57,704 bases of DNA from Candidatus Iainarchaeum sp. (GCA_043815085.1 JBDRJG010000022.1:1-57704), one strand, 5' to 3'. Counted from the stretch's first letter, positions 18,802-48,649 are shown. A program made the numbers and translations. Notes: generated by a model from the letters alone, not told the origin.

Positions 18802-18835
18802 TAAATTTTATTAATGGTATTCTACTGGATAAATT

Positions 18836-20700: not shown

Positions 20701-20701
20701 A

Positions 20702-21966: not shown

Positions 21967-21987
21967 TTTCTGTGAAAGGATATTAAA

Positions 21988-22281
21988 ATGATAAATAAGC
22001 GAGTTAACAAAAAAGCAGACATACCTGTAACGATATTAGTAATAGGGGTTTTTGCAGTTTGCGTTCTTGCTTTAATTATTTTCTTAAATTCCTCCCACTA
22101 TGCAGGAAAATATTTTGCTGGAATTAATTTAATAGAAGAGGCAAAGGCAAGAATAGAAGCAGGAAGTTTAAATCATTTATATCTAGATAAAAGAAAAACT
22201 AAATTTGATATTGAAATTGGAGAGGGGGGAATTTCCTTTTTTAAAGAAAAAATAATCTTTTCAGTAGAGTATAACCCTTAA
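21988..22281 (+). CDS. Prepilin-like protein
   Basis: MINKRVNKKA/DIPVTILVIGVFAVCVLALIIFL. Confidence 0.55.
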   Translation: MINKRVNKKADIPVTILVIGVFAVCVLALIIFLNSSHYAGKYFAGINLIEEAKARIEAGSLNHLYLDKRKTKFDIEIGEGGISFFKEKIIFSVEYNP

Positions 22282-22310
22282 TTTAATCTTTTCTTGAAAA
22301 ACCAATAAAA

Positions 22311-22318
22311 TTTATAAA
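22311..22318 (+). promoter_or_regulatory. Internal TATA box TTTATAAA
   Basis: Ends 21 nt upstream of ATG 22340. Confidence 0.4.
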
Positions 22319-22339
22319 CCCTTTAATCCTTTTGAATAG

Positions 22340-22921
22340 ATGAAATCGAATACTAAGAGGTTATTTTTATCCTTATTTTTCAGCTTGTTAATTGTTAATT
22401 TATTTGGATTTTTTGGAATTGTTTCTGCAGCTGCAGGAGATACAATCACTTATAATGTTAATCAAGAAATAAATGTAGATGCGGGCCTTGGAAAAGTTCT
22501 GGGGTTTTTGAATATTACTGGAACCTGGAGAGAAGTTGTCTTAGGATTAATTGTCTTGCTTATAATTTTTGCAGCACTATATGATATTCTTATGCTTATT
22601 AACATTTTTCAAATTAAGTGGGTAAAAATAATTATTGCAGCTGGGCTTGCTATTGTAGCAGCTTTGACAAATGTTGTTTCTAAATTCACATTATTCTTAC
22701 TGAAAGTTGCAGCAGGATTTGGGGCAATAGGAATATTCATAGAGATTATAATCACTATAATACTCTTTGTCGGATTAGCTATGGGAAGCAATTGGATTGC
22801 CAAATGGGCTGCAAAGAGAAAAGGGCAGGCGGCAGAACTTGCAGCAATTGAGTCTTCTGGAGATACTAAAGCAGCCATAAGAGGAATGAGAAATATTCAA
22901 GAAGAGTTTGAAAGAAAATAG
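22340..22921 (+). CDS. Secreted/polytopic membrane protein of the pilus cluster
   Basis: 193-aa ORF with signal peptide ...FGIVSAAAG followed by about four TM helices. Unknown family. Confidence 0.5.
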   Translation: MKSNTKRLFLSLFFSLLIVNLFGFFGIVSAAAGDTITYNVNQEINVDAGLGKVLGFLNITGTWREVVLGLIVLLIIFAALYDILMLINIFQIKWVKIIIAAGLAIVAALTNVVSKFTLFLLKVAAGFGAIGIFIEIIITIILFVGLAMGSNWIAKWAAKRKGQAAELAAIESSGDTKAAIRGMRNIQEEFERK

Positions 22922-22966
22922 ATTAGAAATATTAAGGCTTAAAAAGGGCTTTTAATTATTTATTTT

Positions 22967-23665
22967 ATGAAATTCGGGAGATTATTTTTTATTTTTATTC
23001 TTGGGATTCTTCTAATGCAAATTCCTTTTGTTATTGCAGAGAAAACTGATTTTGGTGGGGGGGGATTTGGAGGAGCAGGAGCAGGGGGGAGTTTCACAAC
23101 AGACATTGCAGAAGGAAATGCAGATTATTTAACAGATTTTGCAGATTCAAGCAAATGGGGGAATTTATCCCAAAATTGGAAGCAAGAACTTTTAAGCACC
23201 GGATTTTTTTCAGGAATGAATGTTTTTCTCAGTAAAATTAATTTTGTATTTGTAATCCTTTTTGGAGAGTCTTATGAATTCTCTCTTCTTTTTGTATTTA
23301 TTATAATATTATGGTTTTGGTTCTTCTTTCAGTTTAAAAGAATACTGAAAGCAATTTCTCTTTTTTCATCCTGGGTTTCTTTAATAATTTCTTTTGGTCT
23401 TGCAGTTGCATTGGCTCAGCTGGGACTTTATAAGAGTCTTTCGGCTTTTTTTGTAAAATTGATATTTCTGCCTAAAAGTCCTTGGTTAGGAATTGTATTC
23501 TTTTTCTTGATAATTGCTGTTTTAATTATCCTTTCTAAGTTCGGGAAAATGATTGAAATAAAAACAGCCAAAAATAAAGAACTTTTAGAAAAAGAAAAAG
23601 AAAAGATAAATCGTAATGTTTTGGACACATATGTTGGCGGATTAAAAAAAGGTTTTGATAAATAA
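22967..23665 (+). CDS. Secreted/polytopic membrane protein with Gly-rich N-terminal segment
   Basis: 232-aa ORF with a signal peptide, then DFGGGGFGGAGAGGSF, then several TM helices. Confidence 0.5.
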   Translation: MKFGRLFFIFILGILLMQIPFVIAEKTDFGGGGFGGAGAGGSFTTDIAEGNADYLTDFADSSKWGNLSQNWKQELLSTGFFSGMNVFLSKINFVFVILFGESYEFSLLFVFIIILWFWFFFQFKRILKAISLFSSWVSLIISFGLAVALAQLGLYKSLSAFFVKLIFLPKSPWLGIVFFFLIIAVLIILSKFGKMIEIKTAKNKELLEKEKEKINRNVLDTYVGGLKKGFDK

Positions 23666-23726
23666 AGAGGAAATATTTATAAACAGCATTTTACTTTATA
23701 ATTTATAAATTAGCAAAAAGGGGAAA

Positions 23727-24050
23727 ATGAAAAATAAAAAAGCCCAAGGTATGAGTACATCAACTATTATCCTTATGATTTTAGGATTAGTTATACTAGT
23801 TATTTTAATTCTTGGATTCACTTTGGGATGGAATAAATTTCTTCCTTGGTTAAAAACAAATAATTTAGAAACAATAAAAACTACATGTGCTGTTGCATGC
23901 TCTACAAACAGCATCTATGATTTTTGCACTTTGAGCAGAGAAGTTAATGATGGGGAAAATGATAAATTTTCATCAAATTGTGAAGAGCTATCTACAGCAG
24001 ATAAGTATAAACTCTATGGAATCACTCCTTGTCCGAATATCTGCCCTTAA
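23727..24050 (+). CDS. Prepilin-like protein, Cys-containing
   Basis: MKNKKA/QGMSTSTIILMILGLVILVILILGF. Six Cys in the globular part. Confidence 0.55.
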   Translation: MKNKKAQGMSTSTIILMILGLVILVILILGFTLGWNKFLPWLKTNNLETIKTTCAVACSTNSIYDFCTLSREVNDGENDKFSSNCEELSTADKYKLYGITPCPNICP

Positions 24051-24193
24051 TGGTTCTAAATTCTAAAATGTCTTCAAATCACAGTTCTGGTTTTGAAAAA
24101 AGAAATAAAGGGAAAGATAAACGCAGAGAGAAGAAAAAGCATCCTTATCAGAAAGGCGGGAAATATAGGTCTATTAAAATTAAGAGTGAATAA
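24050..24193 (+). CDS. Possible 47-aa highly basic peptide (not in ORF track)
   Basis: The ATG overlaps the preceding TAA (TAATG). Sequence MVLNSKMSSNHSSGFEKRNKGKDKRREKKKHPYQKGGKYRSIKIKSE. This could be a chance ORF. Confidence 0.2.
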   Translation: MVLNSKMSSNHSSGFEKRNKGKDKRREKKKHPYQKGGKYRSIKIKSE

Positions 24194-24201
24194 TTTATAA
24201 A
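24194..24201 (+). promoter_or_regulatory. TATA box TTTATAAA
   Basis: Ends 21 nt upstream of ATG 24223. Confidence 0.45.
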
Positions 24202-24222
24202 TAATAATTTCTAATTTCTTTT

Positions 24223-25053
24223 ATGTTTGAGGTGATTTTTTTAATTGTTCTTGGGTTAATCTGGATTTTATTTGCAGTAGTGCAGGATTTAAAAAAGAGA
24301 GAGATTGCGAATTGGCTTAATTTTTCACTTATAATTTTTGCATTGGGCTTTAGGCTTTTCTATTCTTTATTTTTCGATTCAAATTTAATATTCTTCTACC
24401 AAGGATTAATTGGATTTGTACTTTTCTTTTTTTTGGGAAATATGCTTTATTATGGAAGAGTTTTTGCAGGAGGAGATGCAAAACTAATGATTGCATTAGG
24501 AGCAATCTTGCCTCTCTCTGAAAGTTTATATGCAAATTTAAATTTGTTCTTTTTATTTTTTATACTTTTTTTGATTGTCGGGGCAGTTTATGGATTAATA
24601 TTCAGTTTAGTTTTAGCAATAAGGAATAATAAAAATTTCAAGAGAGAGTTTACAAGAAAATTTGTGAAAAATAGGATGCTCTTTCATGTAAGTTTAATTG
24701 TTTCACTTATTTTTGTTTTTATCTCTTTTTTTAATAGAATTTTTATTTATCCTGCTATTCTTGTTTTTCTCTCTCCGTATATTTATTTCTCAGCCAAGGC
24801 AATAGATGAAGTCTGCATGATTAAAAAAGTCCCTGTATCGAAATTAACAGAGGGGGATTGGCTTTACAAGGATGTCCGGATTGGTAGAAAAATAATAAAA
24901 GCAAGCTGGGATGGCTTGAGCAGGGAGGAGATAAATCTGCTAAAAAATAGATATAAGAAAGTCTTAATTAGACGGGGAATACCTTTTAGCCCTGTTTTTT
25001 TAATATCTTACTTAATCTTTTTTCTTCTTATCAATAAAATCTCTTTTATTTAG
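24223..25053 (+). CDS. A24-family prepilin/preflagellin peptidase (PibD/FlaK/EppA-like) with archaeal C-terminal domain
   Basis: 276-aa polytopic ORF. First catalytic Asp in VQDLKKREIANW (codon 24286-24288), second in FAGGDAKLM (codon 24475-24477). Confidence 0.75.
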   Translation: MFEVIFLIVLGLIWILFAVVQDLKKREIANWLNFSLIIFALGFRLFYSLFFDSNLIFFYQGLIGFVLFFFLGNMLYYGRVFAGGDAKLMIALGAILPLSESLYANLNLFFLFFILFLIVGAVYGLIFSLVLAIRNNKNFKREFTRKFVKNRMLFHVSLIVSLIFVFISFFNRIFIYPAILVFLSPYIYFSAKAIDEVCMIKKVPVSKLTEGDWLYKDVRIGRKIIKASWDGLSREEINLLKNRYKKVLIRRGIPFSPVFLISYLIFFLLINKISFI

Positions 25054-29239: not shown

Positions 29240-29278
29240 ATTTTATATTTTTACAATATAGTTTAAAAAGATTTGTTT

Positions 29279-29343
29279 TAGTAAAACATATAAAGTATAT
29301 ATTAATAAAAAGTATAATAGTAAAACATATAAAGTATATATTA
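29279..29343. repeat. Two direct copies of a 26-mer (TAGTAAAACATATAAAGTATATATTA) at 29279-29304 and 29318-29343
   Basis: Read directly from the sequence. Each copy contains a TATA-like AAGTATATATTA. Confidence 0.9.
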
Positions 29344-29357
29344 GACTATATATAATA
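29313..29357 (+). repeat. 45-nt promoter/5' cassette, copy A (identical to 30911-30955)
   Basis: TATAATAGTAAAACATATAAAGTATATATTAGACTATATATAATA, aligned by hand with no mismatch. Ends 4 nt before ATG 29362. Confidence 0.9.
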
Positions 29358-29361
29358 GAAG

Positions 29362-30792
29362 ATGGGTGATAAAAGAAGGATATTCATATTAGAATTTTTA
29401 TTTTTAGGTTTACTTTTAGTATTGTTTAATTTACAAATTATATCTGCTAATTCAATAGCTACAGGTGTTTATTTTCAAGGAAATGTTACTGCTAATTATG
29501 ATGAGGGAGGAGTTCTTTTGGTTAATTGGACTGCAGCAGGAAGTGCTGCAGGAAATTATACTGTGTATTTGTGGATGAATAATAATTTTGTAAATGTGAC
29601 AGAGTATGTTAATAACAGTGCAACCGGTTATTCTTGGGGGGCGAATACCACAGAAGCAAACTATACTTTTACTGTCGAAGCAGTAACTGCAGCTAATGCA
29701 ACAGGAACCAATGCAACAAATGTATCTATGTATGTAGATAGAACAGTTCCATTAGTAAATTGGACAGGTTCAGGGTATAATAATGTAACTTATAAAAAGA
29801 GTACAGATTATCTTACACTTAATATTTCAGTCGGGGATGTTCTTTCTGGGGCGGCTAGTGGAAATTCTTATTGCGTCTTTAACATTAGTGGAACAAATGA
29901 AACTGTTGCTGTTTCAAATGGTTGGTGTAATACTACTTATTTGAATTTAACTGGACTTTCTGATGGAAACCATACAATTGATGTTTGGGCAAATGATACT
30001 GTTAATAATGTTGGAGTTAATCTTTCATTTTATGTTGTGTGGGTAGATACCACTGCACCTCCAGCACCCACATTTAGTTGCACACCCGCTTCTGTTTATG
30101 CTGCAGAAACAATTACATGTTCATGTTCTGGTACAGATGCAGGTTCAGGGGTTAATTCCACTTCTTACACTGTAAATCCTTCAACAGCTGTAACAGGAAC
30201 CTTTGATACGTCTTGCAATATCACAGATAATGCAGTTAATTCAGTAAGTTCATCAATTTCTTATGTTGTTGGAGGTATAAAGGGCAGTAGCAGTTCTTCT
30301 TCATCAACTTTTACTTGGAAAATTACTTATGCAGAAGATGATAAAGAATTAGAAGATAAAGAAGAGATTTCAAAACTTCTTGGAGCTAAAACAAGAGTGA
30401 GATTAAAGATTGATGGAAAAATTCATTATGTTGGGGTTAATAGTCTAACCACCACAACAGCCACACTAAATATTTCATCTACTCCTCAAAGTGCAACACT
30501 TTCTATTGGAGATATTAAGAAATTTGAGGTTACAGGGGATGATTTTTATGATTTGCAAGTAATATTGAATTCAATAGATTCAAATAAGGCTAATCTCACT
30601 ATCCAGTCAATTCATGAAGAAATAACAGCTGAAGCAGAAGCAGAAGAAGAAGAAGAAACTTCTGCACAAGGAGAAACTTCTGCAGAAGAAGAAAAAGAGA
30701 AAGAAAATAAAAATTTGCTGTGGTTGTATATAATTTTAGGTATTTTAGTAATTGCAGTTGTAGGATATTTCTTTTGGAAAAAGAAAAAATAA
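29362..30792 (+). CDS. Secreted, sequon-dense surface (S-layer-like/adhesin) protein with C-terminal TM anchor
   Basis: Signal peptide MGDKRRIFILEFLFLGLLLVLFNLQIISA. Very many N-x-S/T sequons and Ig-like repeats (DAGSGVNSTSY). The C-terminal module is shared with the 2086-aa protein. Confidence 0.6.
   Translation: MGDKRRIFILEFLFLGLLLVLFNLQIISANSIATGVYFQGNVTANYDEGGVLLVNWTAAGSAAGNYTVYLWMNNNFVNVTEYVNNSATGYSWGANTTEANYTFTVEAVTAANATGTNATNVSMYVDRTVPLVNWTGSGYNNVTYKKSTDYLTLNISVGDVLSGAASGNSYCVFNISGTNETVAVSNGWCNTTYLNLTGLSDGNHTIDVWANDTVNNVGVNLSFYVVWVDTTAPPAPTFSCTPASVYAAETITCSCSGTDAGSGVNSTSYTVNPSTAVTGTFDTSCNITDNAVNSVSSSISYVVGGIKGSSSSSSSTFTWKITYAEDDKELEDKEEISKLLGAKTRVRLKIDGKIHYVGVNSLTTTTATLNISSTPQSATLSIGDIKKFEVTGDDFYDLQVILNSIDSNKANLTIQSIHEEITAEAEAEEEEETSAQGETSAEEEKEKENKNLLWLYIILGILVIAVVGYFFWKKKK
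30686..30780 (+). repeat. 95-nt 3' cassette, copy A (identical to 37111-37205)
   Basis: Hand alignment shows no mismatch. Encodes ...EEKEKENKNLLWLYIILGILVIAVVGYFFWK. Confidence 0.9.
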
Positions 30793-30910
30793 AATCTTTT
30801 TTCAAACCTATTTTGATTTAATTATTAAGACTAAAACTTTTTCCATAATTACTTTTTTACAATAGAATTTAAAAAGATTTGTTTTTAAAAGGTTTTGTTT
30901 TATTAAAATA

Positions 30911-30955
30911 TATAATAGTAAAACATATAAAGTATATATTAGACTATATATAATA
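30911..30955 (+). repeat. 45-nt promoter/5' cassette, copy B
   Basis: Identical to 29313-29357. Ends 4 nt before ATG 30960. The upstream ~30 nt (30854-30886) also resembles 29246-29280. Confidence 0.9.
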
Positions 30956-30959
30956 AAAG

Positions 30960-33900
30960 ATGGGCGATAAAAGGGGAGTATTTCTATTAGGGTTTGTTCT
31001 AGTGTTTTTTGTCTTGTTTGTTGGGGATTTTGTTTCTGCTTATTGTTGGGATTATAATGATGACCAAATTACTTGTGATGCTCAATCAGATTGTAGGTAT
31101 CATTCTGAATCTTGGGGGGGTTGGTGTGAAGAATTAAATTGCTGGAGTTTGTCTTCTACAGAATGTACTAACACAACATTAACCACTGCTATAGATAAAA
31201 ATTGTCAGTGGAAAAATCCAAATGATTATGGATGGTGCAGTCAGAAAAGTTGCTGGAGTTTTAAGGGAACTAATTCAACTTATTGTGGGAATGTTTCTGA
31301 TCATGGATTAAATTGTGAATGGAGAGCTCAGTGTAATGGTTGGAATCCAGATACTAATTGTTGGGATTTAACAACCCAAAATACGTGTAATAATATTTCT
31401 GGATGTTATTGGGGAGAATGTGCTGATAAAGGATGTTGGAATTATTGGGATGAAACAACTATAGATTCAAATGGGTATGTTTGTGGCAATGCTACTGGTT
31501 CAAGAGGATTGTCTTGCTTATGGAATTCTGGTTCTAATTATTGTTATGAACCTTCTTGTTGGGATTATGGAGGGTCAAGTTCAAATGAATCTTATTGTGA
31601 AGATTTTGCTGCAAGAGGAATAAACTGCACATGGATAAATAATTATTATGTTAAAGATTCTTGTGAAGAGGCTTCTTGTTGGCATTATGATTATACTAAT
31701 GAAACTTGGTGTGAAAATTCTACAAGAAGTGGTTTAAATTGTTCTTGGAGTAATAGTAGTTCAATGTGTATGATGACTGGATGTTGGAATTATGCGAGCC
31801 AAGGTGCTTGTCAAGGAGATTCTGCTTGTGTTTGGGGAACTTCAACAGGTTCTGGATGGTGTGAAGAAATTCAATGTTGGAGTTATGATACTTGGAGTGG
31901 AGGGAATTATACTTTTTGTGTGAATTCAACTTTAAACAACGGTCTGACTTGTCAGTGGACAAATGATACTTATAGTGAGACAGAGTTTGCTGGGTGGTGT
32001 AAACCTGTTCTTACTGAATCTTGTGCAAATTTTACCTCGGAAAGAGATTGTATGGATTCTTATTGGTGTTGGTGGGAATATGTTAATTGGAATAATGTTT
32101 CTTTAGGTGGAATTTGTAAAGACCCTATGTGGACAGAGGAAGGACTGACTTCTGCTGATGATATATTTATTGAATGGAATCCTGGATGTTATATTTTTGA
32201 TATGAATGCAACAGAGTGTAATTATACTGTTGGATGTAATTATAGTAATAGCTTATGCAATGTTGTGGGTAATGAAGATAATTTAATCTTTAATATAACT
32301 GCAGATGATATTAATACAAATGGAATTAATTGTTCTTTGATTAATAATTCTCAATTGTGTACAAATATTCCTGCACTTTCAACTTGTTGTGAATGGAGTG
32401 GTGTAGATTGCACTTCTAAATTAGGAAAATCTTGTTGGGAAAACGCTGATAGAGAGCAACAGAGTTTAGGAGTAACTGCTTGTGGAGATGTTGGTGTTCA
32501 AACTTCAAATGCCAATGAAGGTGAAACTTTATGTCAACAAATTACAGGTTATCCATTATATATGCCTTGTAATTGGACGAATGCTACTAAAACATGTGAT
32601 TTCAAGGCAAGTGATGTGTTTGGAAATCGAACACAAAGTTTTGCATTAATTGATAATAAGAAGAATTGTGATGCTTCTGGTGGAAAATGGATTCAGGAAT
32701 TTTATTGTGAAGGAAATCGTTCTGTTCCTGCTGGAAGATGTGAACAAAAAGGAACTGATGAGAGAAACTGTAACAAAGCATGTTTTGCTTGTGAATATGA
32801 TTTTAATGGTGCTCCGCACAATTCAAGCAATGTAGCAAAGGAATATTGTTATGATTCTAATCTAGGTTATTGTGAATTTATTACAGATACTTCTGCTCCA
32901 AATGGTTTTGGGTTTTGTAAATCAAAAGAGGAATTTGTAAATGGAATTGCAGGAGATTGTAGATATGATTGTGGGGATTGCACTTATTATGGAAATCCTA
33001 ATGCTTCAACTTATTCAGATGCAAGGCCAGATTTAATTCCATCTATTCCTACAACTTTTGATATTTGTAATACTCCTAAATGCTATTGTGGTTATGCAAA
33101 AGAATTTAATAATGTTACTTGTAAATGGGTTGTTGATTCTGCTTCAACTGAAATTGGAGGTTATTGTGTAGCCAGTTCTGAGAAAACTTGCGAGGATTCA
33201 TGTGATAGATGTTATACACAAGATAATTGCCTTGATAATGGAAGAAGCTCTCTCAATGCATCTGGTTCTTGTGAATGGGCTAATGATGCCTGTACAAAAC
33301 GGTCAGGAGGAGATGGAGTTACAGAAATTTGTTGGGATGGTATTGATAATGATGGAGATAATTTAATTGATTGTGGTGATTCAGGATGTTTTGCTGATTC
33401 ATTTTGTGGTTTTGTTTCAGGAGATTGTTTTGGATGGACAACTCAGGCAACTTGTGAGGCTTCTCAGTTAGATAGTGGGCTTAATTGTTCTTGGATAACA
33501 GACCCTTGGGGGAGCTGGTGTGATTTTCCAGGAGCTGATTGTTGGAAGAGTGATGGAAATGCAACAGCATGTAATTTAAAGAACATAAGTTGTGATTGGT
33601 CTGGAGGAACTGGTTCTGGTTGGTGTGAGCAAGATTGGAGTGTTGGACAAGATTGTTATAATCTTTTAAGTGAAACAGCTTGTGATGTTGAAGGTTGCAC
33701 GTGGACAAATGATACTTGGTGCTCTGGAGAGGGTGCTGATAATGAATGGTGTTTGAATTCTGCAGGAGGTTGGTGTGACCCTGATGCTTTTGCTCCTAAG
33801 AATTGTTATCAATATACTGATAATATAACTGTTATTAGTAGTTATGTTTGTGGAAATAAGACAGGATGTTATTGGAGTGGTAGTTATTGTATGGAAGAAG

Positions 33901-36900
33901 GATGTTGGAATTTTGATGGTAATAGCACTCTTTGTAATCAACAATCTAATTGTGCTTGGGAGTATAGTGATTGGCAGGGGTGCCAAGTAGATTGGAGTGG
34001 AAATTGTTGGAATTTTGGTGCTAATGAATCTTATTGTCAGGATAATGGGTGTGCTTGGAGAAATGATAGTTATAATCCTGTTGGTTGGTGTGATAATAAT
34101 GTTAGTAAATGTTGGGATTATATTACTAATGCTACATGTGGTGTAGATAGTAATTGTATGTGGAATTCAGAGATGTGGAATTGGAGAACAGAGAGTTATG
34201 GTTCTTGTGATGCTGCTTGTTATAATAGTAATTTGACTTCATCTCAGTGTGGGGTTCTTACTGGTTGTAGATGGAATGATGGCTGGTGTATGAGTAATGC
34301 AACTTATGGGGGAGGTACAGGAGGAATTGATTGTTGGCAGTATGCAGATAATACAACTATTATTGGCACTTTTGTTTGTGGTAATGCTACTGGATGTAAA
34401 TGGAAAAATGATGGTTGGTGTGATCCAAAAGGTTTTTCAGGAGGAGGATGTGCAACAGGAATGGGGGGAGGAGCACAAACAGGCATGGAGTGTTGGAAAT
34501 ATGATGGAAATCAAACACGATGCACTAATTCTTCTGATATTAATATAAGTTGTATATGGATGCCAGAGTTAAGACCATTCTGCGAACCAGACTGGAGTTC
34601 TGATTGTTGGAAATATTATGATAATATAACTATAGATAGTGCAGGGTATGCTTGTGGAAATGTTAGTGGTTGTTATTGGCAAAATACAAGCGAGGTTCAG
34701 GGATATTGTGCAAATGTATTTGACCAGTGTTGGAATTCAACTTATTCAGATGGAGCAAATAATGATACAGCAGAATGTGATGCTAATCCAAATTGTAATT
34801 GGACAACTGGTTCTTGGGATACTTATTATCAAGGAACTGGTTGGTGTGAGCCAAGTTGTTTTTCTGCTACAACAGAAGCAGGTTGCACTGGAAGTTGCAG
34901 ATGGATGAGTGGTTGGTGTAATACTCCTGGAATGTATAATATGTTTGGAGGAATGGAGACTGGAGCTCCTGTTATGATTGCTGTGGATGCTATAGGAGAT
35001 AATACAACATCAGGAGAATATCTTGATTTAATGGGTATGGGGATGAGAGATATGGAGGGTAGTTTTGGATTTGCATCTGGAACTCGGAATTTTGCAGATG
35101 CAGGAATTTGTAATAATGAAAAAATAGGATTTAGTTTTGGAGGAACAAATAATTTTGGAAAAGGAAATGCAACTGTTAGATATTATGTTTATTTAGATAC
35201 AGATGGAAGCACAACAGGTGGATGCGCTTTAAGCGATGATTCATCTGTAGTAGGTTATGAGTTTTTCTTTAAATATATTTCAACTTATAATACTACTTTA
35301 GGAAAAGCAACAGAGACATTTAATGCACAGAAGTGTGGTTCAAGCGGATGGGTGACTGCAGATATAAGTTTAAATGCTTGGAAAGAAAAAATGTGCGGAG
35401 AAATACAAGGACCAATGATTGCTGTTGATAAAGCAGCTTTAGAAAAATTTCCAAGCTTATATAATGCAGAGAAAGATATGAGGGTTTATGTTTCTATTGC
35501 AGGAGCAGATAATAATGCGACTTCTCCTTCAGATATTGCAGGACCTGGATGGGTGACTCCTGGAGCAATTGATTTCTCAATAACAGGGTTCTTTGATTTG
35601 GGAGCCAGTGGTGCGACATTTGAAAAGATACTTATGGGAGGGGGGTTTGTTAAATATGAAGATTGTTATAATATTGTGGATGATGATGGGGATGGATTAG
35701 TTGATTGTGCTGATTGGGATTGTGAATTTACACCTCATTGTGAGAGTTCTGGAGTTAATGTTGTGGGATATGCTGATACTTCAATGCCAAGAATTACTGG
35801 AGTAAAGGTGGAGGAATATACTGATGCTGCTTTGATTTTTTATACTACAAACAAACCAACAAATGGAACATTAACTTTCTGGCATAATGATTCAACATGT
35901 AGTGTAAATAATACTATGAGTAGAACAATTGATGATTCAACTGTATTAACTAGTGTAAGAAACTTTACTTTATGGCATGATGCACATATATATAATGATA
36001 CGGGAGTTGATTCTCTTGATTATAATTTAAGTAACGATACTACTTATTATTACAAGTTAAAGGTGTGTGATTCAGGCAATAAATGTAGTGTAAGTGCTTG
36101 TTCTTCACTTAGAACAGCGAGTTCAATTAAATGTGGATATTGTAATTTTGTCACAATAATCTCTCCTCCTTTAGGATGGCAGGTTAGTTATGACTTGAAT
36201 ACTGATGGTCTTTATGAGCATAAACAGGGATTAATGTGCGGACCAAGTGCAGGGATGAAAACAAATTATTCTTCTGGAAGGAGAGCTAATATTAAACTGA
36301 ATAATTCTGATGGGGCTGAGATGTTGTTTTACAATGTAACTCTGACTAAGACTGGCTTAACTGGCGATACAAGGACTATAAATACAGCAGGAGATTTAAT
36401 CTATGATGGCGCTCAAACAAATAGTGCTGGAGAAACTGTTGAATTAGTTGGTATGATTGCAGAGACAAGAGACAAGATAATTAATAATTTACATCCAGAA
36501 GTTTGTAAGATTTTAATCCCTAATGATGATTGTGGTGAGTTGTGGCACTGTGATGATTCAGGAGCTAATTGTCAAAGAAGAGATAATGCAACAACAGATG
36601 CTCCAACAGGAGTAGTAAGTGGAACGTCTTGTTTGTGGACAATTCCTTATTGTGAATTTTCTACATGGGCTTCTGGCCAACCAGGAGATACTGTAACTAC
36701 AACTCCGCCAACTACTTCTGGAAGTGGGGGGAGTAGTGGAGGAGGTTCCTCTGGAGGAGGAGCAACTTATATTGTTTCAGAAAGCCAGTTAACAAATGGG
36801 CATAGTCAAGAATTAGCTCTAAATGCACGATTTAAAATGACTGTTCTTAATTCAACACATTATATGAAATTAATTGAATTAACTGAAAACACCGCTACAA

Positions 36901-37220
36901 TTAATCTTTCTTCTGAATCTCAAATAGCAACTTTAAATATAGGGGACATTAGAAGATTTGAACTTACAGGGGATGATTTTTATGATTTGAAAACAATTTT
37001 AAATTCAATAAATTCAACTTCAAATAAAGCAAATTTTACTTTGAAATCTATTTCAGAAGAAGTAACTCCTGAAACAGAAGCAGAAGAAACAGAAAAAGAG
37101 GGTTTAGCACAAGAAGAAAAAGAGAAAGAAAATAAAAATTTGCTGTGGTTGTATATAATTTTAGGTATTTTAGTAATTGCAGTTGTAGGATATTTCTTTT
37201 GGAAAGAGAAAAAAAGATAA
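30960..37220 (+). CDS. Giant (2086 aa) secreted Cys/Trp-rich repeat protein with C-terminal TM anchor
   Basis: Signal peptide MGDKRGVFLLGFVLVFFVLFVGDFVSA. Tandem ~35-45 aa units (CW..x..C..x..C.W..x..WC) span ~31041-34925. Two CxxxxDxDGDxLxDCxDxxC motifs lie at 33330-33410 and 35664-35741. The tail has a Ser/Gly linker, a shared beta domain, an acidic linker and a TM helix. Confidence 0.7.
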   Translation: MGDKRGVFLLGFVLVFFVLFVGDFVSAYCWDYNDDQITCDAQSDCRYHSESWGGWCEELNCWSLSSTECTNTTLTTAIDKNCQWKNPNDYGWCSQKSCWSFKGTNSTYCGNVSDHGLNCEWRAQCNGWNPDTNCWDLTTQNTCNNISGCYWGECADKGCWNYWDETTIDSNGYVCGNATGSRGLSCLWNSGSNYCYEPSCWDYGGSSSNESYCEDFAARGINCTWINNYYVKDSCEEASCWHYDYTNETWCENSTRSGLNCSWSNSSSMCMMTGCWNYASQGACQGDSACVWGTSTGSGWCEEIQCWSYDTWSGGNYTFCVNSTLNNGLTCQWTNDTYSETEFAGWCKPVLTESCANFTSERDCMDSYWCWWEYVNWNNVSLGGICKDPMWTEEGLTSADDIFIEWNPGCYIFDMNATECNYTVGCNYSNSLCNVVGNEDNLIFNITADDINTNGINCSLINNSQLCTNIPALSTCCEWSGVDCTSKLGKSCWENADREQQSLGVTACGDVGVQTSNANEGETLCQQITGYPLYMPCNWTNATKTCDFKASDVFGNRTQSFALIDNKKNCDASGGKWIQEFYCEGNRSVPAGRCEQKGTDERNCNKACFACEYDFNGAPHNSSNVAKEYCYDSNLGYCEFITDTSAPNGFGFCKSKEEFVNGIAGDCRYDCGDCTYYGNPNASTYSDARPDLIPSIPTTFDICNTPKCYCGYAKEFNNVTCKWVVDSASTEIGGYCVASSEKTCEDSCDRCYTQDNCLDNGRSSLNASGSCEWANDACTKRSGGDGVTEICWDGIDNDGDNLIDCGDSGCFADSFCGFVSGDCFGWTTQATCEASQLDSGLNCSWITDPWGSWCDFPGADCWKSDGNATACNLKNISCDWSGGTGSGWCEQDWSVGQDCYNLLSETACDVEGCTWTNDTWCSGEGADNEWCLNSAGGWCDPDAFAPKNCYQYTDNITVISSYVCGNKTGCYWSGSYCMEEGCWNFDGNSTLCNQQSNCAWEYSDWQGCQVDWSGNCWNFGANESYCQDNGCAWRNDSYNPVGWCDNNVSKCWDYITNATCGVDSNCMWNSEMWNWRTESYGSCDAACYNSNLTSSQCGVLTGCRWNDGWCMSNATYGGGTGGIDCWQYADNTTIIGTFVCGNATGCKWKNDGWCDPKGFSGGGCATGMGGGAQTGMECWKYDGNQTRCTNSSDINISCIWMPELRPFCEPDWSSDCWKYYDNITIDSAGYACGNVSGCYWQNTSEVQGYCANVFDQCWNSTYSDGANNDTAECDANPNCNWTTGSWDTYYQGTGWCEPSCFSATTEAGCTGSCRWMSGWCNTPGMYNMFGGMETGAPVMIAVDAIGDNTTSGEYLDLMGMGMRDMEGSFGFASGTRNFADAGICNNEKIGFSFGGTNNFGKGNATVRYYVYLDTDGSTTGGCALSDDSSVVGYEFFFKYISTYNTTLGKATETFNAQKCGSSGWVTADISLNAWKEKMCGEIQGPMIAVDKAALEKFPSLYNAEKDMRVYVSIAGADNNATSPSDIAGPGWVTPGAIDFSITGFFDLGASGATFEKILMGGGFVKYEDCYNIVDDDGDGLVDCADWDCEFTPHCESSGVNVVGYADTSMPRITGVKVEEYTDAALIFYTTNKPTNGTLTFWHNDSTCSVNNTMSRTIDDSTVLTSVRNFTLWHDAHIYNDTGVDSLDYNLSNDTTYYYKLKVCDSGNKCSVSACSSLRTASSIKCGYCNFVTIISPPLGWQVSYDLNTDGLYEHKQGLMCGPSAGMKTNYSSGRRANIKLNNSDGAEMLFYNVTLTKTGLTGDTRTINTAGDLIYDGAQTNSAGETVELVGMIAETRDKIINNLHPEVCKILIPNDDCGELWHCDDSGANCQRRDNATTDAPTGVVSGTSCLWTIPYCEFSTWASGQPGDTVTTTPPTTSGSGGSSGGGSSGGGATYIVSESQLTNGHSQELALNARFKMTVLNSTHYMKLIELTENTATINLSSESQIATLNIGDIRRFELTGDDFYDLKTILNSINSTSNKANFTLKSISEEVTPETEAEETEKEGLAQEEKEKENKNLLWLYIILGILVIAVVGYFFWKEKKR
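37111..37205 (+). repeat. 95-nt 3' cassette, copy B
   Basis: Identical to 30686-30780. Confidence 0.9.
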
Positions 37221-37251: not shown

Positions 37252-38472
37252 ATGATGGAAAGAAATTGGGTATTTGCTGATTTGCATATTCATTCGCGAT
37301 TTTCAAGAGCGTGCAGCAAGGATATTACAATAGAAAATCTTGAAAAATGGGCAAGAGTTAAGGGAATTGGTTTGCTTGGAACAGGAGATTTTACTCATCC
37401 TCTCTGGCTTAAAGAAGTAAAAGAAAAATTAATTGAGAAAGAAGGGATTTTATATTCAAAAAGTGGATTTAAGTTTTTATTGACAGGAGAGATTAGTTTA
37501 ATGTACACCCAGGGAAGAGGAAGGAGAGTGCATTTAGTTTTACTTGTTCCTGATTTTAAGACTGTAGATAAAATAAATGAATATTTTGATGGAAAAGGAA
37601 GAAGAGATTATGATGGGAGGCCCATATTTAAGATATCTTGTGAGCAATTTGTGAAGGACATGAAGGAAATTTCAGAAGATATTGAAATAATTCCTGCTCA
37701 TGTTTGGACTCCTTGGTTTGGAATCTTTGGGAGCATGACTGGTTTTGATAGTTTAAATGAAGCTTTTGGCGAACAAGAAAAGAATATTCATGCAATTGAA
37801 ACAGGGATGTCAAGCGACCCTGAGATGAATTGGCATTTATCTGAATTAAATAATAGGGCAATAGTTTCTTTTTCAGATTCCCATAGTTTTTGGCCTTGGA
37901 GAATTGGAAGAGAAGCAACTATTTTTGAAAAAGTAGACAACTATCAGGATATTATTGGCGCTATAAGAGAAAATAAAATTCTTGGAACAATTGAAACAGA
38001 GCCATCATATGGAAAATATCATTGGGACGGACATGCCAATTGTAATTTTTCAAGTTCCCCCGAAGAAAGTAAAAAATTAAGTGGAATTTGTCCTGTTTGT
38101 AATAAACCTCTTACTATAGGTGTTGCAAACAGAGTTTCTGAAATTGAAGATCAGGCAATAGAGAAAAATTCAAACAGAAAAAAATATTATGTTCTATTAC
38201 CTTTGCATGAATTAATAGCATTCAGTAAGGCTTCAACACTTTCTAGCAAAAAGACCTGGGAACTTTACAATAAGATTATTGGGAGATTTGGAAATGAATT
38301 TAATGTTTTATTGAATGTTTCAAAAGAAGATTTAATAGAGGAATTAAAAGATGATTTAAAATTAGTTCAATTAATTTTAGATAATCGTGAGGGAAAAATA
38401 AAAGTCAAGCCAGGATATGATGGTAAATATGGAGAACTTGTAGAAGGAGAGAAGCAGGTTAAATTGTTTTAA
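37252..38472 (+). CDS. endQ: Endonuclease Q (PHP-domain nuclease with zinc ribbon, COG1379-type)
   Basis: The N-terminus FADLHIHSRFSRACS...GLLGTGDFTHP closely matches EndoQ as I recall it. Zinc ribbon is CNF...CPVCNKP. Confidence 0.7.
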   Translation: MMERNWVFADLHIHSRFSRACSKDITIENLEKWARVKGIGLLGTGDFTHPLWLKEVKEKLIEKEGILYSKSGFKFLLTGEISLMYTQGRGRRVHLVLLVPDFKTVDKINEYFDGKGRRDYDGRPIFKISCEQFVKDMKEISEDIEIIPAHVWTPWFGIFGSMTGFDSLNEAFGEQEKNIHAIETGMSSDPEMNWHLSELNNRAIVSFSDSHSFWPWRIGREATIFEKVDNYQDIIGAIRENKILGTIETEPSYGKYHWDGHANCNFSSSPEESKKLSGICPVCNKPLTIGVANRVSEIEDQAIEKNSNRKKYYVLLPLHELIAFSKASTLSSKKTWELYNKIIGRFGNEFNVLLNVSKEDLIEELKDDLKLVQLILDNREGKIKVKPGYDGKYGELVEGEKQVKLF

Positions 38473-45275: not shown

Positions 45276-45395
45276 AGCCCCATAGTACAGTGGTCAAGTA
45301 TACGGCCCTTTGGAGCGAGACTCTTTGAGTCTCTCACTCTTACTTCAGAGAAGCGAAGAGAGGCCGGGACCCAGGTTCGAATCCTGGTGGGGCTA
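45276..45395 (+). tRNA. tRNA-Gln (anticodon UUG) with 47-nt intron at the canonical 37/38 position
   Basis: Cloverleaf drawn by hand. Acceptor AGCCCCA/TGGGGCT (A1-U72) plus discriminator A. D arm GTAC-AGTGGTCAA-GTAT. Anticodon stem CGGCC/GGCCG with loop CTTTGGA. T arm CCAGG-TTCGAAT-CCTGG. It is a GC-rich island followed by a T5 run. Confidence 0.8.
45314..45360 (+). other. tRNA intron (boundaries +/-1 nt)
   Basis: Insertion between loop position 37 and the 3' anticodon stem. It contains a perfect 7-bp hairpin GAGACTC-TTT-GAGTCTC (45317-45333). A relaxed bulge-helix-bulge can be drawn. Confidence 0.6.
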
Positions 45396-47639: not shown

Positions 47640-48248
47640 TCAGTGTCTATAACGCCCTCTTCTTTCAACAGAAGTTAATCTTTCAAATATAATTTTAGAT
47701 TCTGGATAATCCCTTGAATAAGCTTTTTGAAATTCCTGAAATAATTCTCTCCAGTGTTGGAAATGCTTAGCTTCTAGGGCTTGTTTTAATAAATGCAAAT
47801 CAACTGCCTTGTCTTCTACTTTTTTTGAGATATATCCCAAACCAAAATCAATGAAAAAGACTTCTTTGTCTTTTAGAATCATATTAGAGGTTGTTAAATC
47901 TCCGTGTATTATGTTTTCCTTATGGAGTTTTGTAATTGATTCTCCAATTTTTTTCATAATTTGTTTTTGTTTTTCCAGAGAAAAATCATTGAGGGAATTT
48001 GAGAGTTTTTCTCCTTCAATAAATGGCATTTTTATTATATTAATTTCTTTTAAGGGGAGAGGATCAGGGGCATTTATTATTTTAGATGCTTTTTCAAGAA
48101 GTTTCTTTTCTGCCTTTGTTCTTTGTTTTATTATTTTTTTATCTAATTCAGGTATTCTGTAGGATTTTGATATTCTGTCTTTTACAATGAGATTATTTTT
48201 TTTATCAAGAAATATCTTAGCTTCTGCACCTTGTTGGATTAGTTTCAT
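47640..48248 (-). CDS. bud32: Bud32 (Kae1-associated, RIO-type atypical kinase; KEOPS subunit)
   Basis: Catalytic loop HGDLTTSNMIL and metal-binding FIDFGL in ~200 aa. The ATG at 48248 overlaps the VKOR stop (ATGA); the track start at 48260 is a GTG. Confidence 0.75.
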   Translation of the reverse strand: MKLIQQGAEAKIFLDKKNNLIVKDRISKSYRIPELDKKIIKQRTKAEKKLLEKASKIINAPDPLPLKEINIIKMPFIEGEKLSNSLNDFSLEKQKQIMKKIGESITKLHKENIIHGDLTTSNMILKDKEVFFIDFGLGYISKKVEDKAVDLHLLKQALEAKHFQHWRELFQEFQKAYSRDYPESKIIFERLTSVERRGRYRH

Positions 48249-48649
48249 TTTTCTCTCCACGCAAAAACTATAACCAGACTGAGCAAAGCACCAAAGTCAA
48301 CAGCTACACAATATTTGCAGAGTGCTTTTAGGGCAAAGAATTGAAGATAGAGAAAATAAAGCGCGATTATAGAACCAAATAAGATACCCACTATAATTAT
48401 TTTTCTTTTATATTTTCTTGGATTTTTTATATACGACAATGCTAAAATTAAAAGAATCGGGAATGCAATTAATCCAAAATAACTGTTGTTAATTCCCAGG
48501 GTTTTTTCATATTCTGAGGTTTGTACAGCATAGCATGTTGTTTGAATTCCCCCACAAGCCTGTTCTGGTGGAATAAATGATAATACTGCAGATGCTACAA
48601 ATGAGAGAAAGAATATTGCAATCAAAATGATGTATTTTGCTTTTTTCAT
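48245..48649 (-). CDS. Vitamin K epoxide reductase (VKOR) family membrane protein
   Basis: 134 aa with four TM helices. Loop Cys pair CGGIQTTC, conserved SEYEKTLGINNSYFG, and redox CKYC in the last helix. Confidence 0.7.
   Translation of the reverse strand: MKKAKYIILIAIFFLSFVASAVLSFIPPEQACGGIQTTCYAVQTSEYEKTLGINNSYFGLIAFPILLILALSYIKNPRKYKRKIIIVGILFGSIIALYFLYLQFFALKALCKYCVAVDFGALLSLVIVFAWREK

What the first reader, a model, noticed from the sequence alone, without database searches (positions are those of the whole stretch)
30960..37220. 2086-aa Cys/Trp-repeat giant surface protein
Seen: a Sec-type signal peptide is followed by dozens of tandem ~35-45 aa units built on CW...C...C.W...WC. Examples are CWSLSSTECTNTTLTTAIDKNCQWKNPNDYGWC and CWNYASQGACQGDSACVWGTSTGSGWC. 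By hand count there are about 40 Cys in the first ~390 residues, and the units continue to ~34925 with very frequent N-x-S/T sequons. Two acidic Cys-framed motifs, CWDGIDNDGDNLIDCGDSGC and CYNIVDDDGDGLVDCADWDC, look like Ca-binding DxDxDG loops. The C-terminal third is beta-rich and ends in a Ser/Gly linker, a ~100-aa domain, an acidic linker and a TM anchor. I cannot assign the CW repeat to any named family. Inference: this is a disulfide-knotted, glycosylated adhesin or fibre projecting from the cell. Giant surface proteins are typical of host-dependent small-genome lineages, but this repeat architecture appears undescribed.
Basis: partly seen in the sequence, partly recalled or inferred. 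Interest (0 to 1): 0.75.

Follow-up and report, generated by a model that had tools for sequence, protein, structure and literature searches.

The report
Conserved giant cysteine-rich DPANN surface glycoprotein
This is a real 2086-residue membrane-anchored surface protein found once per genome in many tiny uncultivated (DPANN) archaea, built from 24 copies of a small cysteine/tryptophan module that matches no described protein family, and it is probably a core part of the cell coat, not a variable adhesin.

Summary
ORF 30960..37220 (+) encodes 2086 aa with 157 Cys, 91 Trp and 73 N-x-S/T sequons. It has 24 units of C-W-x-C-x-C-x-W-x-(W)C, against 1.8 expected by chance. They lie in two blocks (aa 29-433 and 823-1320), not one continuous run.

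Neither Pfam, NCBIfam, PDB sequences, Foldseek nor a profile search of 1.84 billion proteins assigns the unit to a known family.

The two acidic Cys motifs match NCBIfam's acidic double-disulfide repeat and the Ca-binding C-rich domain of teneurin-4.

The protein is not an oddity or a misassembly. At least 115 collinear orthologs of about 2000 aa (25-79% identity) occur in Woese-, Pace-, Nano- and Aenigmat-archaeota MAGs, one locus per genome among housekeeping genes. 141 of 157 Cys are at least 90% conserved. dN/dS is about 0.2 across the ectodomain.

The best-modelled and most conserved part is a compact beta-rich module near the membrane. The same genome encodes a VKOR disulfide-forming enzyme.

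I read it as a core, glycosylated, disulfide- and Ca-stabilised envelope protein, possibly S-layer-like. The adhesin reading is neither shown nor excluded. It is a new variant of a known kind; interest 0.58.

The parts
30849..30959 (+). 5' region and probable promoter, duplicated upstream of the neighbouring gene
   Evidence: 86-89% nucleotide identity to 29243-29361 (families D4 and D9). The 25-nt element AGTAAAACATATAAAGTATATATTA occurs only at 29280, 29319 and 30917; 0 matches are expected by chance. AT-rich TATA-like runs lie 10-40 nt before the ATG. Promoter function is inferred.
30960..37220 (+). Complete ORF, 2086 aa plus stop codon
   Evidence: Full-length collinear orthologs: P0001 has 79% identity over 100% of the query.
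30960..31040 (+). Sec-type signal peptide, aa 1-27
   Evidence: Read from the sequence: basic n-region MGDKRG, hydrophobic core, then FVSA|Y. Orthologs have the same layout.
31044..32258 (+). CW repeat block I, 11 four-Cys units, aa 29-433
   Evidence: Every Cys is invariant in 39 sequences of 36-84% identity. The AF2 model gives two short helices plus a beta hairpin per unit, at pLDDT about 70-80. Seven of 10 inter-unit linkers are exactly 4 aa.
32259..33323 (+). Central Cys-rich, Trp-poor non-repeat region, aa 434-788 (33 Cys, 6 Trp)
   Evidence: It contains the strongly conserved stretch GGKW..YCEG..S.P.GRCE.K...NC.KACFACE. No family hit.
33324..33410 (+). Acidic double-disulfide (teneurin C-rich-like) Ca-binding motif 1, aa 789-817
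   Evidence: The second NF033662 stretch is assigned here, though the call lists only the best stretch, at 1567-1594. The family profile matches teneurin-4 7PLP at E=0.0011. E789, C791, D804, C805, D807, C810 and C816 are invariant.
33426..34919 (+). CW repeat block II, 13 four-Cys units, aa 823-1320
   Evidence: One whole 4-Cys unit (about aa 949-981) is present or absent between orthologs.
34971..35594 (+). Beta-sandwich domain of about 12 strands, aa 1338-1545, with the invariant loop YLDTDG
   Evidence: AF2 pLDDT is mostly 85-95. Conserved loop. There is only a weak ConA-like lectin hint from BFVD (rank 25). No Pfam hit.
35658..35744 (+). Acidic double-disulfide Ca-binding motif 2, aa 1567-1595
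   Evidence: Best NF033662 stretch, aa 1567-1594. phmmer alignment to teneurin-4 7PLP over aa 1569-1595. Its four Cys are invariant.
35793..36119 (+). FN3/Ig-like beta-sandwich, aa 1612-1720
   Evidence: AF2 strands. The Foldseek hits are FN3 arrays. Only weak Ig-type Pfam hints appear in orthologs.
36144..36659 (+). Conserved C-terminal beta/alpha domain, aa 1729-1900
   Evidence: AF2 pLDDT 80-93. Motifs YEH.QG, AGMK.NY, TRDKI.NNLHPE and HCDD.G.NC are conserved.
36660..36761 (+). Thr/Ser/Gly-rich flexible linker, aa 1901-1934
   Evidence: Read from the sequence. Poorly conserved.
36762..37052 (+). Membrane-proximal domain of about 97 aa, shared with the neighbouring ORF, aa 1935-2031
   Evidence: 58% identity to aa 337-476 of ORF 29362..30792. 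No other homolog was found. It is not a PGF-pre-PGF domain.
37053..37217 (+). Acidic linker (aa 2032-2060), TM helix (aa 2061-2081) and basic tail KEKKR
   Evidence: Read from the sequence. The TM helix is identical to that of the neighbouring ORF.
29362..30792 (+). Neighbouring 476-aa sequon-rich surface protein that shares the promoter region, the start of the signal peptide and the C-terminal anchor module
   Evidence: It has 24 sequons against 9.5 +/- 2.6 expected. It is absent from the syntenic locus of the closest relative.
48245..48649 (-). VKOR homolog: probable source of oxidising power for extracytoplasmic disulfides in this organism
   Evidence: PF07884, E=1.2e-17, 64.8 bits against a cutoff of 27.5. 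Loop Cys C32/C39 and the CKYC motif C111/C114 are present. Its link to the giant protein is inferred.

Best explanation
The gene encodes a core cell-envelope glycoprotein of a Woesearchaeota/Pacearchaeota-type DPANN archaeon.

Proposed sequence of events:
- It is exported by Sec and the signal peptide is cut after residue 27.
- It stays tethered by a single C-terminal TM helix.
- Its roughly 150 conserved cysteines are oxidised outside the cell, probably with electrons passed on to the VKOR encoded in the same genome.
- Many of its 73 sequons are N-glycosylated.

Proposed layout, from the membrane outward:
- An acidic linker and a small, lineage-specific domain that is swapped between lineages.
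- A flexible Ser/Gly/Thr linker.
- A compact, highly conserved base (aa 1338-1900) made of a beta-sandwich, a Ca-binding acidic double-disulfide motif, an FN3-like domain and a further beta domain.
- 13 CW modules.
- A second Ca-binding motif.
- A 355-aa Cys-rich region.
- 11 CW modules at the distal tip.

Each CW module (two short helices plus a beta hairpin, four Cys, about 38 aa) is a self-contained module, probably with two disulfides. Short linkers, mostly 4 residues in block I, string the modules into stiff, protease- and stress-resistant rods.

I think this is the main structural surface coat of the cell, S-layer-like or a spike layer, and not a variable adhesin.

Shown:
- The anatomy.
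- The conservation.
- Single-locus, core-gene status.
- Absence of any known family for the repeat.
- Ca-motif homology.
- Presence of VKOR.

Inferred:
- That the Cys form disulfides.
- Glycosylation.
- Rod geometry.
- Abundance and a lattice role.
For: Export and anchoring:
- Signal peptide and TM anchor, read from the sequence.
- The gene sits in an archaeal housekeeping context: RadA, NDK, eIF2alpha, SRP54, L1/L10.

Conservation and core-gene status:
- 115 orthologs with the same architecture, Cys about 7.5% and Trp about 4%.
- 76 distinct loci in distinct DPANN genomes, each of the 76 loci on a different contig record, including the complete genome GW2011_AR15. Gene length is typically about 1900-2100 aa, longest 2700.
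- No conserved operon. Flanking housekeeping genes are syntenic in close relatives.
- 141 of 157 Cys are at least 90% conserved. The one odd Cys is lineage-specific.
- A whole 4-Cys unit is gained or lost as a block.
- dN/dS against the 79%-identical ortholog is 0.21 overall and 0.13-0.25 in every ectodomain window.

Glycosylation:
- Sequons are 2.3-fold enriched, and 37 of 73 are conserved in at least half of the orthologs.

Structure:
- C-terminal module: pLDDT 83.4, pTM 0.79.
- CW units: pLDDT about 70-80, with a repeated helix-helix-hairpin pattern.

Ca motifs:
- NF033662, E=6.8e-10.
- Teneurin-4 C-rich domain 7PLP, E=0.0011 with the family profile.
- By my hand mapping of the and 58 alignments onto the ligands listed in PMC9058538, 7 of the 8 acidic Ca ligands are kept in each copy (approximate for E835).

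Disulfide machinery:
- VKOR with intact catalytic Cys in the same genome.
- VKOR's role in oxidising secreted proteins is described in PMC6744442 and PMC4555120.

Link to archaeal surface proteins:
- About 15 of 115 orthologs carry a true PGF-pre-PGF surface-protein domain at the membrane-proximal position.

Expression proxy:
- Codon usage ranks 7th of 37 window genes on a ribosomal-protein reference. This is weak evidence, confounded by GC3.
Against: - No direct evidence of abundance, lattice formation or location.
- No sequence or fold similarity to any characterised S-layer protein.
- A coat made of a protein with 157 Cys would be costly. Cys-rich S-layers are not known to me from any archaeon.
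- The N-terminal model has only moderate confidence (pLDDT 69, pTM 0.34). Rod geometry and disulfide pairing are therefore not established.
- VKOR is not syntenic with the gene in the closest relative.
- Trp-rich small modules could equally be glycan-binding units, which would favour an attachment role.
Confidence: 0.5

Rival explanations
1. Host-attachment adhesin or fibre. The long distal arrays of Trp-rich CW modules bind a ligand, for example a glycan, on a host cell. The Ca-binding motifs and the beta-module act as in eukaryotic adhesion receptors such as teneurins.
For: - The organism belongs to DPANN lineages that are generally thought to be symbionts (PMC8204110).
- The distal position of the repeats follows from the type-I topology.
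- Conserved exposed-looking Trp: 56 of 91 are at least 80% conserved.
- The teneurin-type Ca motif comes from a cell-adhesion protein (PMC9058538).
- There is a weak ConA-like lectin hint for aa 1338-1545.
Against: - Purifying selection is uniform, with no hypervariable region.
- Length and Cys pattern are fixed across lineages that are unlikely to share one host.
- There is one copy per genome, with no expansion or variation cassettes.
- No recognised adhesin or lectin domain was hit.
- None of this excludes a protein that is both coat and attachment surface.
Confidence: 0.3
2. Thiol- or metal-binding surface protein. The conserved Cys stay reduced in the anoxic habitats of these archaea. They bind chalcophile metals or minerals, or act in extracellular redox chemistry, instead of forming disulfides.
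For: - Many relatives come from groundwater, sediment and other likely anoxic samples, judging from the record titles.
- Cys density is extreme.
Against: - There are no CxxC/CxxCH knuckles, and His is only 0.6%.
- Cys occur in fours within modules that are gained or lost as whole units.
- The Cys count is even in 63 of 89 family members.
- VKOR is present in the genome.
- The acidic motifs match a domain whose Cys are disulfide-bonded in the crystal structure (PMC9058538).
Confidence: 0.07
3. Assembly artefact: a chimeric or repeat-collapsed ORF.
For: Repetitive genes in metagenome assemblies are prone to collapse. This is a general concern; nothing in this window specifically points to it.
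Against: - At DNA level the units are old and diverged. Only 31-38 nt repeat families at 71-81% identity were found.
- Independent assemblies from many studies give collinear full-length orthologs.
- The closest ortholog lies on two separate JGI contigs with the same flanking genes.
Confidence: 0.01

Closest known systems
Teneurin C-rich Ca-binding domain (PDB 7PLP), NCBIfam NF033662 acidic double-disulfide repeat, and thrombospondin type-3-like Ca loops
   Same: - A short Cys-framed acidic loop of the form C-x-D-x-x-D-N/D-D-G-D-x-L-[IV]-D-C-x-D-x-x-C.
- By my hand mapping of the and 58 alignments, 7 of the 8 acidic Ca ligands of teneurin-4 are kept in each of the two copies (approximate for E835).
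- E-values are significant or near-significant (PMC9058538).
   Different: - Four Cys, not six.
- The NF033662 score of 38.5 bits is just under the curated 41-bit cutoff.
- There are only two copies, embedded in an archaeal protein with no other teneurin domain.
- Ca binding was not measured.
Archaeal S-layer and surface glycoproteins with C-terminal anchoring (for example Haloferax volcanii S-layer glycoprotein, PGF-pre-PGF/PGF-CTERM proteins, Staphylothermus tetrabrachion). The named examples are from my own knowledge.
   Same: - Signal peptide.
- Very acidic, sequon-rich ectodomain.
- Ser/Thr/Gly linker and a C-terminal membrane anchor.
- Some orthologs carry a true PGF-pre-PGF domain, TIGR04213, at 69-94 bits.
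   Different: - No sequence or fold match to any characterised S-layer protein.
- This protein has no PGF-pre-PGF domain and no PGF motif.
- Its extreme Cys/Trp content and disulfide-module arrays are not known to me in archaeal S-layers.
Eukaryotic tandem disulfide-rich modules (EGF-like, PSI, TNFR-type and furin-like repeats; Giardia VSPs). Comparison from my own knowledge.
   Same: The same design principle: small modules of 25-45 aa, locked by disulfides and strung in tandem into stiff extracellular stalks, often N-glycosylated.
   Different: - The Cys pattern differs: four Cys, as C-W...C...C-x-W...(W)C.
- No Pfam model matches whole-protein or single-unit queries, even at E<=10.
- No Foldseek match in the PDB.
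Other giant extracellular proteins of DPANN archaea: murein-transglycosylase-domain proteins of Woese-/Pacearchaeota (PMC8204110), and SPEARE proteins of Nanohaloarchaeota (my own knowledge)
   Same: Very large secreted or anchored proteins in small-genome archaea.
   Different: - Those carry enzymatic domains and are discussed as host-interaction factors.
- This family has no recognisable enzymatic domain.
- It is collinear and conserved across many lineages.

Membership tests
NCBIfam NF033662 acidic double-disulfide repeat | HMM score at or above the curated cutoff of 41 bits | tested here: inconclusive
   38.5 bits, E=6.8e-10, two stretches. Orthologs score 24.6-33.7 bits. The match is statistically significant but below the curated cutoff.
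NCBIfam NF033662 acidic double-disulfide repeat | A unit of about 32 aa with four Cys framing an Asp-rich loop | tested here: met
   aa 791-816 is CWDGIDNDGDNLIDCGDSGCFADSFC. aa 1569-1594 is CYNIVDDDGDGLVDCADWDCEFTPHC. The Cys are invariant in orthologs.
Teneurin C-rich Ca-binding domain (7PLP) | Eight acidic Ca-coordinating residues plus Asn844 | tested here: inconclusive
   The HMMER alignments place Asp/Asn at the ligand positions listed in PMC9058538. By my hand mapping of these alignments (approximate for E835), 7 of 8 acidic ligands are kept in each copy. E=0.0011-0.034. Ca binding was not measured.
Teneurin C-rich Ca-binding domain (7PLP) | Six Cys forming disulfides 1-3, 2-5 and 4-6 | tested here: not met
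   Only four Cys per motif. The second Cys of the teneurin CC pair and the last Cys are absent.
PGF-pre-PGF domain proteins (TIGR04213) | HMM match at or above 28 bits, next to the C-terminal anchor | tested here: not met
   The window protein has no hit at E<=1. hhalign of its C-terminal domain against the orthologs' PGF-pre-PGF regions gives probability 0.15%. About 15 of 115 orthologs do meet the criterion.
Known Cys-rich repeat families (EGF, PSI, TNFR, furin-like, hevein, Myxo/DPY repeats and others) | Match of the CW unit to a curated profile | tested here: not met
   Pfam and NCBIfam on the whole protein gave nothing for the repeats. Of the 24 single units scanned at E<=10, the best result was Trefoil at E=0.015 in 2 of 24 units.
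Archaeal S-layer protein (functional class) | Signal peptide, membrane or cell-surface anchoring, and a sequon-rich acidic ectodomain | tested here: met
   Ectodomain pI 4.1.
Archaeal S-layer protein (functional class) | Homology to a characterised S-layer family | tested here: not met
   No Pfam or NCBIfam S-layer model was hit, and no PDB S-layer protein was found.
Archaeal S-layer protein (functional class) | Most abundant envelope protein, forming a regular 2-D lattice | not testable with these tools
   This needs proteomics or cryo-ET. Only a weak codon-usage proxy is available.
Fibronectin type III / Ig-like fold (aa 1612-1720) | Seven-strand beta-sandwich recognisable by fold or profile | tested here: inconclusive
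   The Foldseek hits are FN3 arrays with probability up to 0.98. TM-scores are low because the query holds four domains. Pfam gives only weak Ig-type hints in orthologs.

The most novel reading that the evidence does not exclude
This family is the principal cell-envelope (S-layer or spike-coat) protein of the Woesearchaeales/Pacearchaeales radiation, and it is built on a previously unknown two-disulfide Cys/Trp fold. That would make it the first heavily disulfide-bonded archaeal surface layer. Its folding would depend on a VKOR-type oxidation pathway in organisms with minimal genomes, and its Ca-binding modules would be shared with metazoan teneurins.
Probability: 0.33. Interest if true: 0.72.

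Novelty: new variant of a known kind. Interest (0 to 1): 0.58.

Why it matters
Woesearchaeota and Pacearchaeota make up a large share of archaeal diversity, but none is well characterised and their cell surface is essentially unknown.

- **A defined target.** A single-copy, 2000-residue, strongly conserved surface protein is the obvious molecule to look for in cryo-ET maps, metaproteomes and host-interaction studies of these organisms.
- **A new domain family.** The CW unit would add a new disulfide-rich domain family to the databases. The whole 2000-aa family currently has almost no domain annotation.
- **Oxidative folding in DPANN.** About 75 conserved disulfides in one exported protein imply that these minimal-genome, mostly anoxic archaea maintain an efficient extracytoplasmic oxidative-folding system.
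- **Evolution of the teneurin domain.** The teneurin-type Ca motif in archaea bears on where that metazoan domain came from.

Tried and rejected
- **Whole-protein family scans.** Pfam gave no hit at E<=1. NCBIfam gave only the acidic repeat.
- **Single CW units against Pfam at E<=10.** Nothing meaningful.
- **PDB sequence searches.** A single-sequence search and a profile of 89 orthologs returned only the teneurin motif plus low-complexity linker noise from scFv linkers.
- **Foldseek of the N-terminal model against the PDB.** Best E=3.2, so no match.
- **Foldseek of the C-terminal model.** Against PDB and BFVD it returned generic FN3/Ig arrays and one ConA-like hint. TM-scores were 0.1-0.18, too weak to name a family.
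- **CW-unit profile against 1.84 billion representative proteins.** 23 hits, almost all fragments of the same family. The full-length orthologs themselves mostly did not score, perhaps because of HMMER's composition corrections, so this search has limited power.
- **Pfam on the C-terminal module of 6 diverse orthologs plus the window's own copy at E<=1.** Nothing.
- **Homologs of the C-terminal anchor module.** None outside this window. hhalign against PGF-pre-PGF was negative.
- **Conserved operon partners across 78 loci.** None; only local housekeeping synteny.
- **Co-location of VKOR with the gene in the closest relative.** Not found.
- **Literature.** Five full-text searches and three papers read found no description of this family or repeat.
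- **Codon-usage proxy for expression.** Confounded by GC3.
- **Sigma-70 promoter scan.** Irrelevant for an archaeon.

Full report

Yes. The ORF runs from 30960 to 37220 on the + strand and encodes 2086 aa.
- It contains 157 Cys (7.5%), 91 Trp (4.4%) and only 13 His.
- All four quoted peptides are present.

A permissive 4-Cys pattern, C[WYFA]-x4-16-C-x3-12-C-x-[WY]-x1-20-C, matches 24 times. In 1000 shuffles of residues 1-1330 it matches 1.8 +/- 1.2 times, with a maximum of 7.
- Aligned, the units give the consensus C-W-x-[YF]-x-x-N-x-[TS]-x-C-x5-7-C-x-W-x5-8-G-W-C.
- Twelve of the 24 units carry a sequon just before the second Cys.
- The period has a median of 38 aa, range 25-55.
- In the first block, 7 of 10 junctions have exactly four residues between the last Cys of one unit and the first Cys of the next.

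The units are not one continuous run. Eleven lie at aa 29-433 and thirteen at aa 823-1320. Between them are a 355-aa region that is Cys-rich (33 Cys) but Trp-poor (6 Trp) and not repetitive, and one acidic motif.

Sequons number 73, against 31.7 +/- 4.9 expected.

**2. It is not an artefact.**

- At DNA level the repeats are old. The only repeat families inside the gene are 31-38 nt long at 71-81% identity.
- A search of 5.8 billion proteins returned 115 relatives. Most are full-length (1800-2100 aa) and collinear, from 79% down to 25% identity. All have about 7-8% Cys, about 4% Trp, an N-terminal signal peptide and, in most complete sequences, a C-terminal TM helix.
- The closest ortholog (P0001, 79% identity, 100% coverage) lies on two independent JGI contigs. 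It is flanked by the same genes as here: RadA upstream, and an MJ0043_C/EndoQ-like gene, NUDIX, eIF2alpha, DHH/Cdc45-like, S15 and ParA-like downstream.

**3. Who has it, and how is it inherited?**

The window is archaeal. It encodes RadA, NDK, eIF2alpha, SRP54/FtsY, L1/L10, a type IV pilus-like locus and an intron-bearing tRNA.

A scan of one genome per GTDB species found 76 distinct loci, each of the 76 loci on a different contig record.
- They are labelled Woesearchaeota, Pacearchaeota, Nanoarchaeota and Aenigmatarchaeota, plus some labels that are probably wrong. They include the complete chromosome of archaeon GW2011_AR15.
- The gene is typically about 1900-2100 aa wherever it is complete; the longest ORF is 2700 aa.
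- There is no conserved operon partner, only local synteny with housekeeping genes.

Conservation is striking.
- Every Cys from aa 29 to 823 is invariant in 39 sequences of 36-84% identity.
- 141 of 157 Cys are at least 90% conserved in 88 orthologs.
- The single 'odd' Cys (C1164) is specific to this lineage.
- One whole 4-Cys unit (about aa 949-981) is present in some lineages and cleanly absent in others, so units behave as closed modules.
- Against the 79% ortholog, dN/dS is 0.21 overall and 0.13-0.25 in every 150-codon ectodomain window. Only the C-terminal anchor module is higher, at 0.37.

**4. Anatomy beyond the repeats.**

*The two acidic motifs.*
- They match NCBIfam NF033662, the 'acidic double-disulfide repeat' (E=6.8e-10, 38.5 bits against a cutoff of 41).
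[quoted passage not shown] E is 0.034 with the single sequence and 0.0011 with the family profile.
- That domain binds three Ca2+ through eight acidic residues, in a thrombospondin-type-3-like manner (PMC9058538). By my hand mapping of the and 58 alignments, seven of the eight acidic ligand positions are kept in each archaeal copy (approximate for E835). Only four of teneurin's six Cys are present.

*The C-terminal third.* It is the most conserved part of the family and models well: aa 1296-1910 give pLDDT 83.4 and pTM 0.79. It contains:
- a beta-sandwich of about 12 strands (1338-1545) with the invariant loop YLDTDG;
- acidic motif 2;
- an FN3/Ig-like sandwich (1612-1720);
- a further beta/alpha domain (1729-1900).

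Foldseek finds only generic FN3/Ig arrays in the PDB and BFVD, plus one ConA-like lectin hint, with TM-scores of 0.1-0.18. Pfam finds nothing, even in diverse orthologs at E<=1.

One genome (locus L024) carries, next to its CW-repeat ortholog, a paralog. It has this C-terminal module (26% identity) and an acidic motif but no CW units. The module is therefore an independent evolutionary unit.

*The N-terminal 830 residues.* They model at moderate confidence (pLDDT 68.8, pTM 0.34). Each CW unit appears as two short helices followed by a beta hairpin, at pLDDT about 70-80. Foldseek finds no PDB match; the best E is 3.2.

**5. The membrane-proximal end is swappable.**

- The last 140 residues are 58% identical to the C-terminus of the upstream 476-aa ORF (29362..30792). 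The TM helix is identical.
- The two genes also share about 110 nt of upstream sequence and the first codons, at 86-89% identity. This includes a 25-nt element found nowhere else in the window.
- That neighbour is itself sequon-rich: 24 sequons against 9.5 expected. It is absent from the otherwise syntenic locus of the closest relative. It looks like a recent local construct that borrowed the giant gene's expression and anchoring ends.
- No other homolog of this anchor module was found.
- In about 15 of 115 orthologs the same position holds a genuine PGF-pre-PGF domain, TIGR04213, at 69-94 bits. This is a hallmark of archaeal surface proteins.
- The window protein does not match it and has no PGF motif.

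**6. Is the CW repeat a known family?**

I could not assign it.
- Pfam and NCBIfam on the whole protein: nothing.
- All 24 units scanned singly at E<=10: nothing meaningful.
- PDB sequences, searched with a profile of 89 orthologs: nothing.
- Foldseek: nothing.
- A unit profile run against 1.84 billion representative proteins returned 23 hits. Almost all are fragments of this same family. That search has limited power for a 28-position Cys-rich profile.
- Precomputed Pfam annotation is empty for nearly all 115 orthologs.
- Full-text literature searches found no description of the family or the repeat (papers read).

**7. How it most likely works.**

The topology is type I, so the conserved beta-module sits near the membrane and the CW arrays project outward.

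Four observations make disulfide-locked modules the natural reading:
- near-total Cys conservation;
- Cys arranged in fours;
- gain and loss of whole units;
- the short, fixed linkers.

The same genome encodes a 134-aa VKOR homolog at 48245..48649 (-), PF07884, E=1.2e-17. It has both the loop Cys pair and the CKYC active site. VKOR re-oxidises thiol-disulfide oxidoreductases that act on secreted proteins (PMC6744442, PMC4555120). The organism therefore appears able to oxidise exported cysteines. The link to this particular protein is inferred, and VKOR is not syntenic with the gene in the closest relative.

Sequon enrichment and conservation (37 of 73 sequons are conserved in at least half of the orthologs) argue for N-glycosylation.

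I therefore read the protein as a glycosylated, disulfide- and Ca-stabilised envelope protein. The following features fit a core structural coat (S-layer-like or spike layer) better than a rapidly evolving adhesin:
- fixed architecture;
- single-copy core-gene status;
- uniform purifying selection;
- an orthologous PGF-pre-PGF variant.

I put this at about 0.5. A host-attachment role (about 0.3) is not excluded and could coexist with a coat role.

Against the S-layer idea:
- there is no similarity to any known S-layer protein;
- there are no abundance data;
- Cys-rich archaeal S-layers are, to my knowledge, unknown.

**8. Verdict.**

The kind of object, an anchored archaeal surface glycoprotein, is known. 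The repeat module and the overall architecture are undescribed, although the family is widespread in public MAGs as 'hypothetical protein'. I rate it a new variant of a known kind, with interest 0.58.

Noticed in passing
window 29362-30792 (+), with upstream region 29243-29361: A 476-aa secreted, sequon-rich protein (24 sequons against 9.5 expected). It shares the giant gene's upstream region and first codons (86-89% nt identity) and its last ~430 nt, including an identical TM helix. It is missing from the syntenic locus of the closest relative, so it looks like a recent mosaic gene.
   Followed up: partly
window 29280-29304, 29319-29343 and 30917-30941 (+): The 25-nt element AGTAAAACATATAAAGTATATATTA occurs three times. 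It is found only upstream of the two surface-protein genes, and none are expected by chance. It is a candidate shared promoter or regulatory element.
   Followed up: partly
window 48245-48649 (-): A VKOR homolog of 134 aa (PF07884, E=1.2e-17) with loop Cys C32/C39 and a CKYC active site. This is disulfide-generating machinery in a minimal-genome archaeon. The closest relative has HicAB at the equivalent position.
   Followed up: partly
window 5544-9947 (+): A second large secreted protein (1467 aa, 53 Cys). Its N-terminal 400 aa are Cys-rich, with weak hits to the Dumpy DPY and Myxo Cys-repeat models. A long Cys-poor C-terminal part has no family assignment. It is unrelated to the CW family.
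   Followed up: partly
window 14189-25053 (+): A type IV pilus or archaellum-like locus. It has a T2SSE-type ATPase (14189-16507), a 733-aa ORF, several small ORFs without Pfam hits (possible pilins) and a prepilin peptidase A24 (24223-25053).
   Followed up: no
window 45276-45395 (+): Rfam finds a tRNA of 120 nt (52 bits) that ARAGORN missed. It is probably an intron-containing archaeal tRNA.
   Followed up: no
locus L024 6507-10592 (+): Directly downstream of the CW-family gene in a Nanoarchaeota MAG lies a paralog. It has the conserved C-terminal beta-module (26% identity to aa 1328-1903) and an acidic double-disulfide motif, but no CW units. The module therefore exists independently of the repeats.
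   Followed up: partly
window 35190-35207 (aa 1411-1416, YLDTDG): A nearly invariant Asp-rich loop inside the first beta-sandwich. It is a possible third Ca site, separate from the two Cys-framed motifs.
   Followed up: no
window 37252-38472 (+): The 406-aa ORF immediately downstream has a PHP-like HxH start but no Pfam hit in my scan. Its ortholog in L079 is recorded with PF27218 (MJ0043_C). It is syntenic with the giant gene in six related loci.
   Followed up: no
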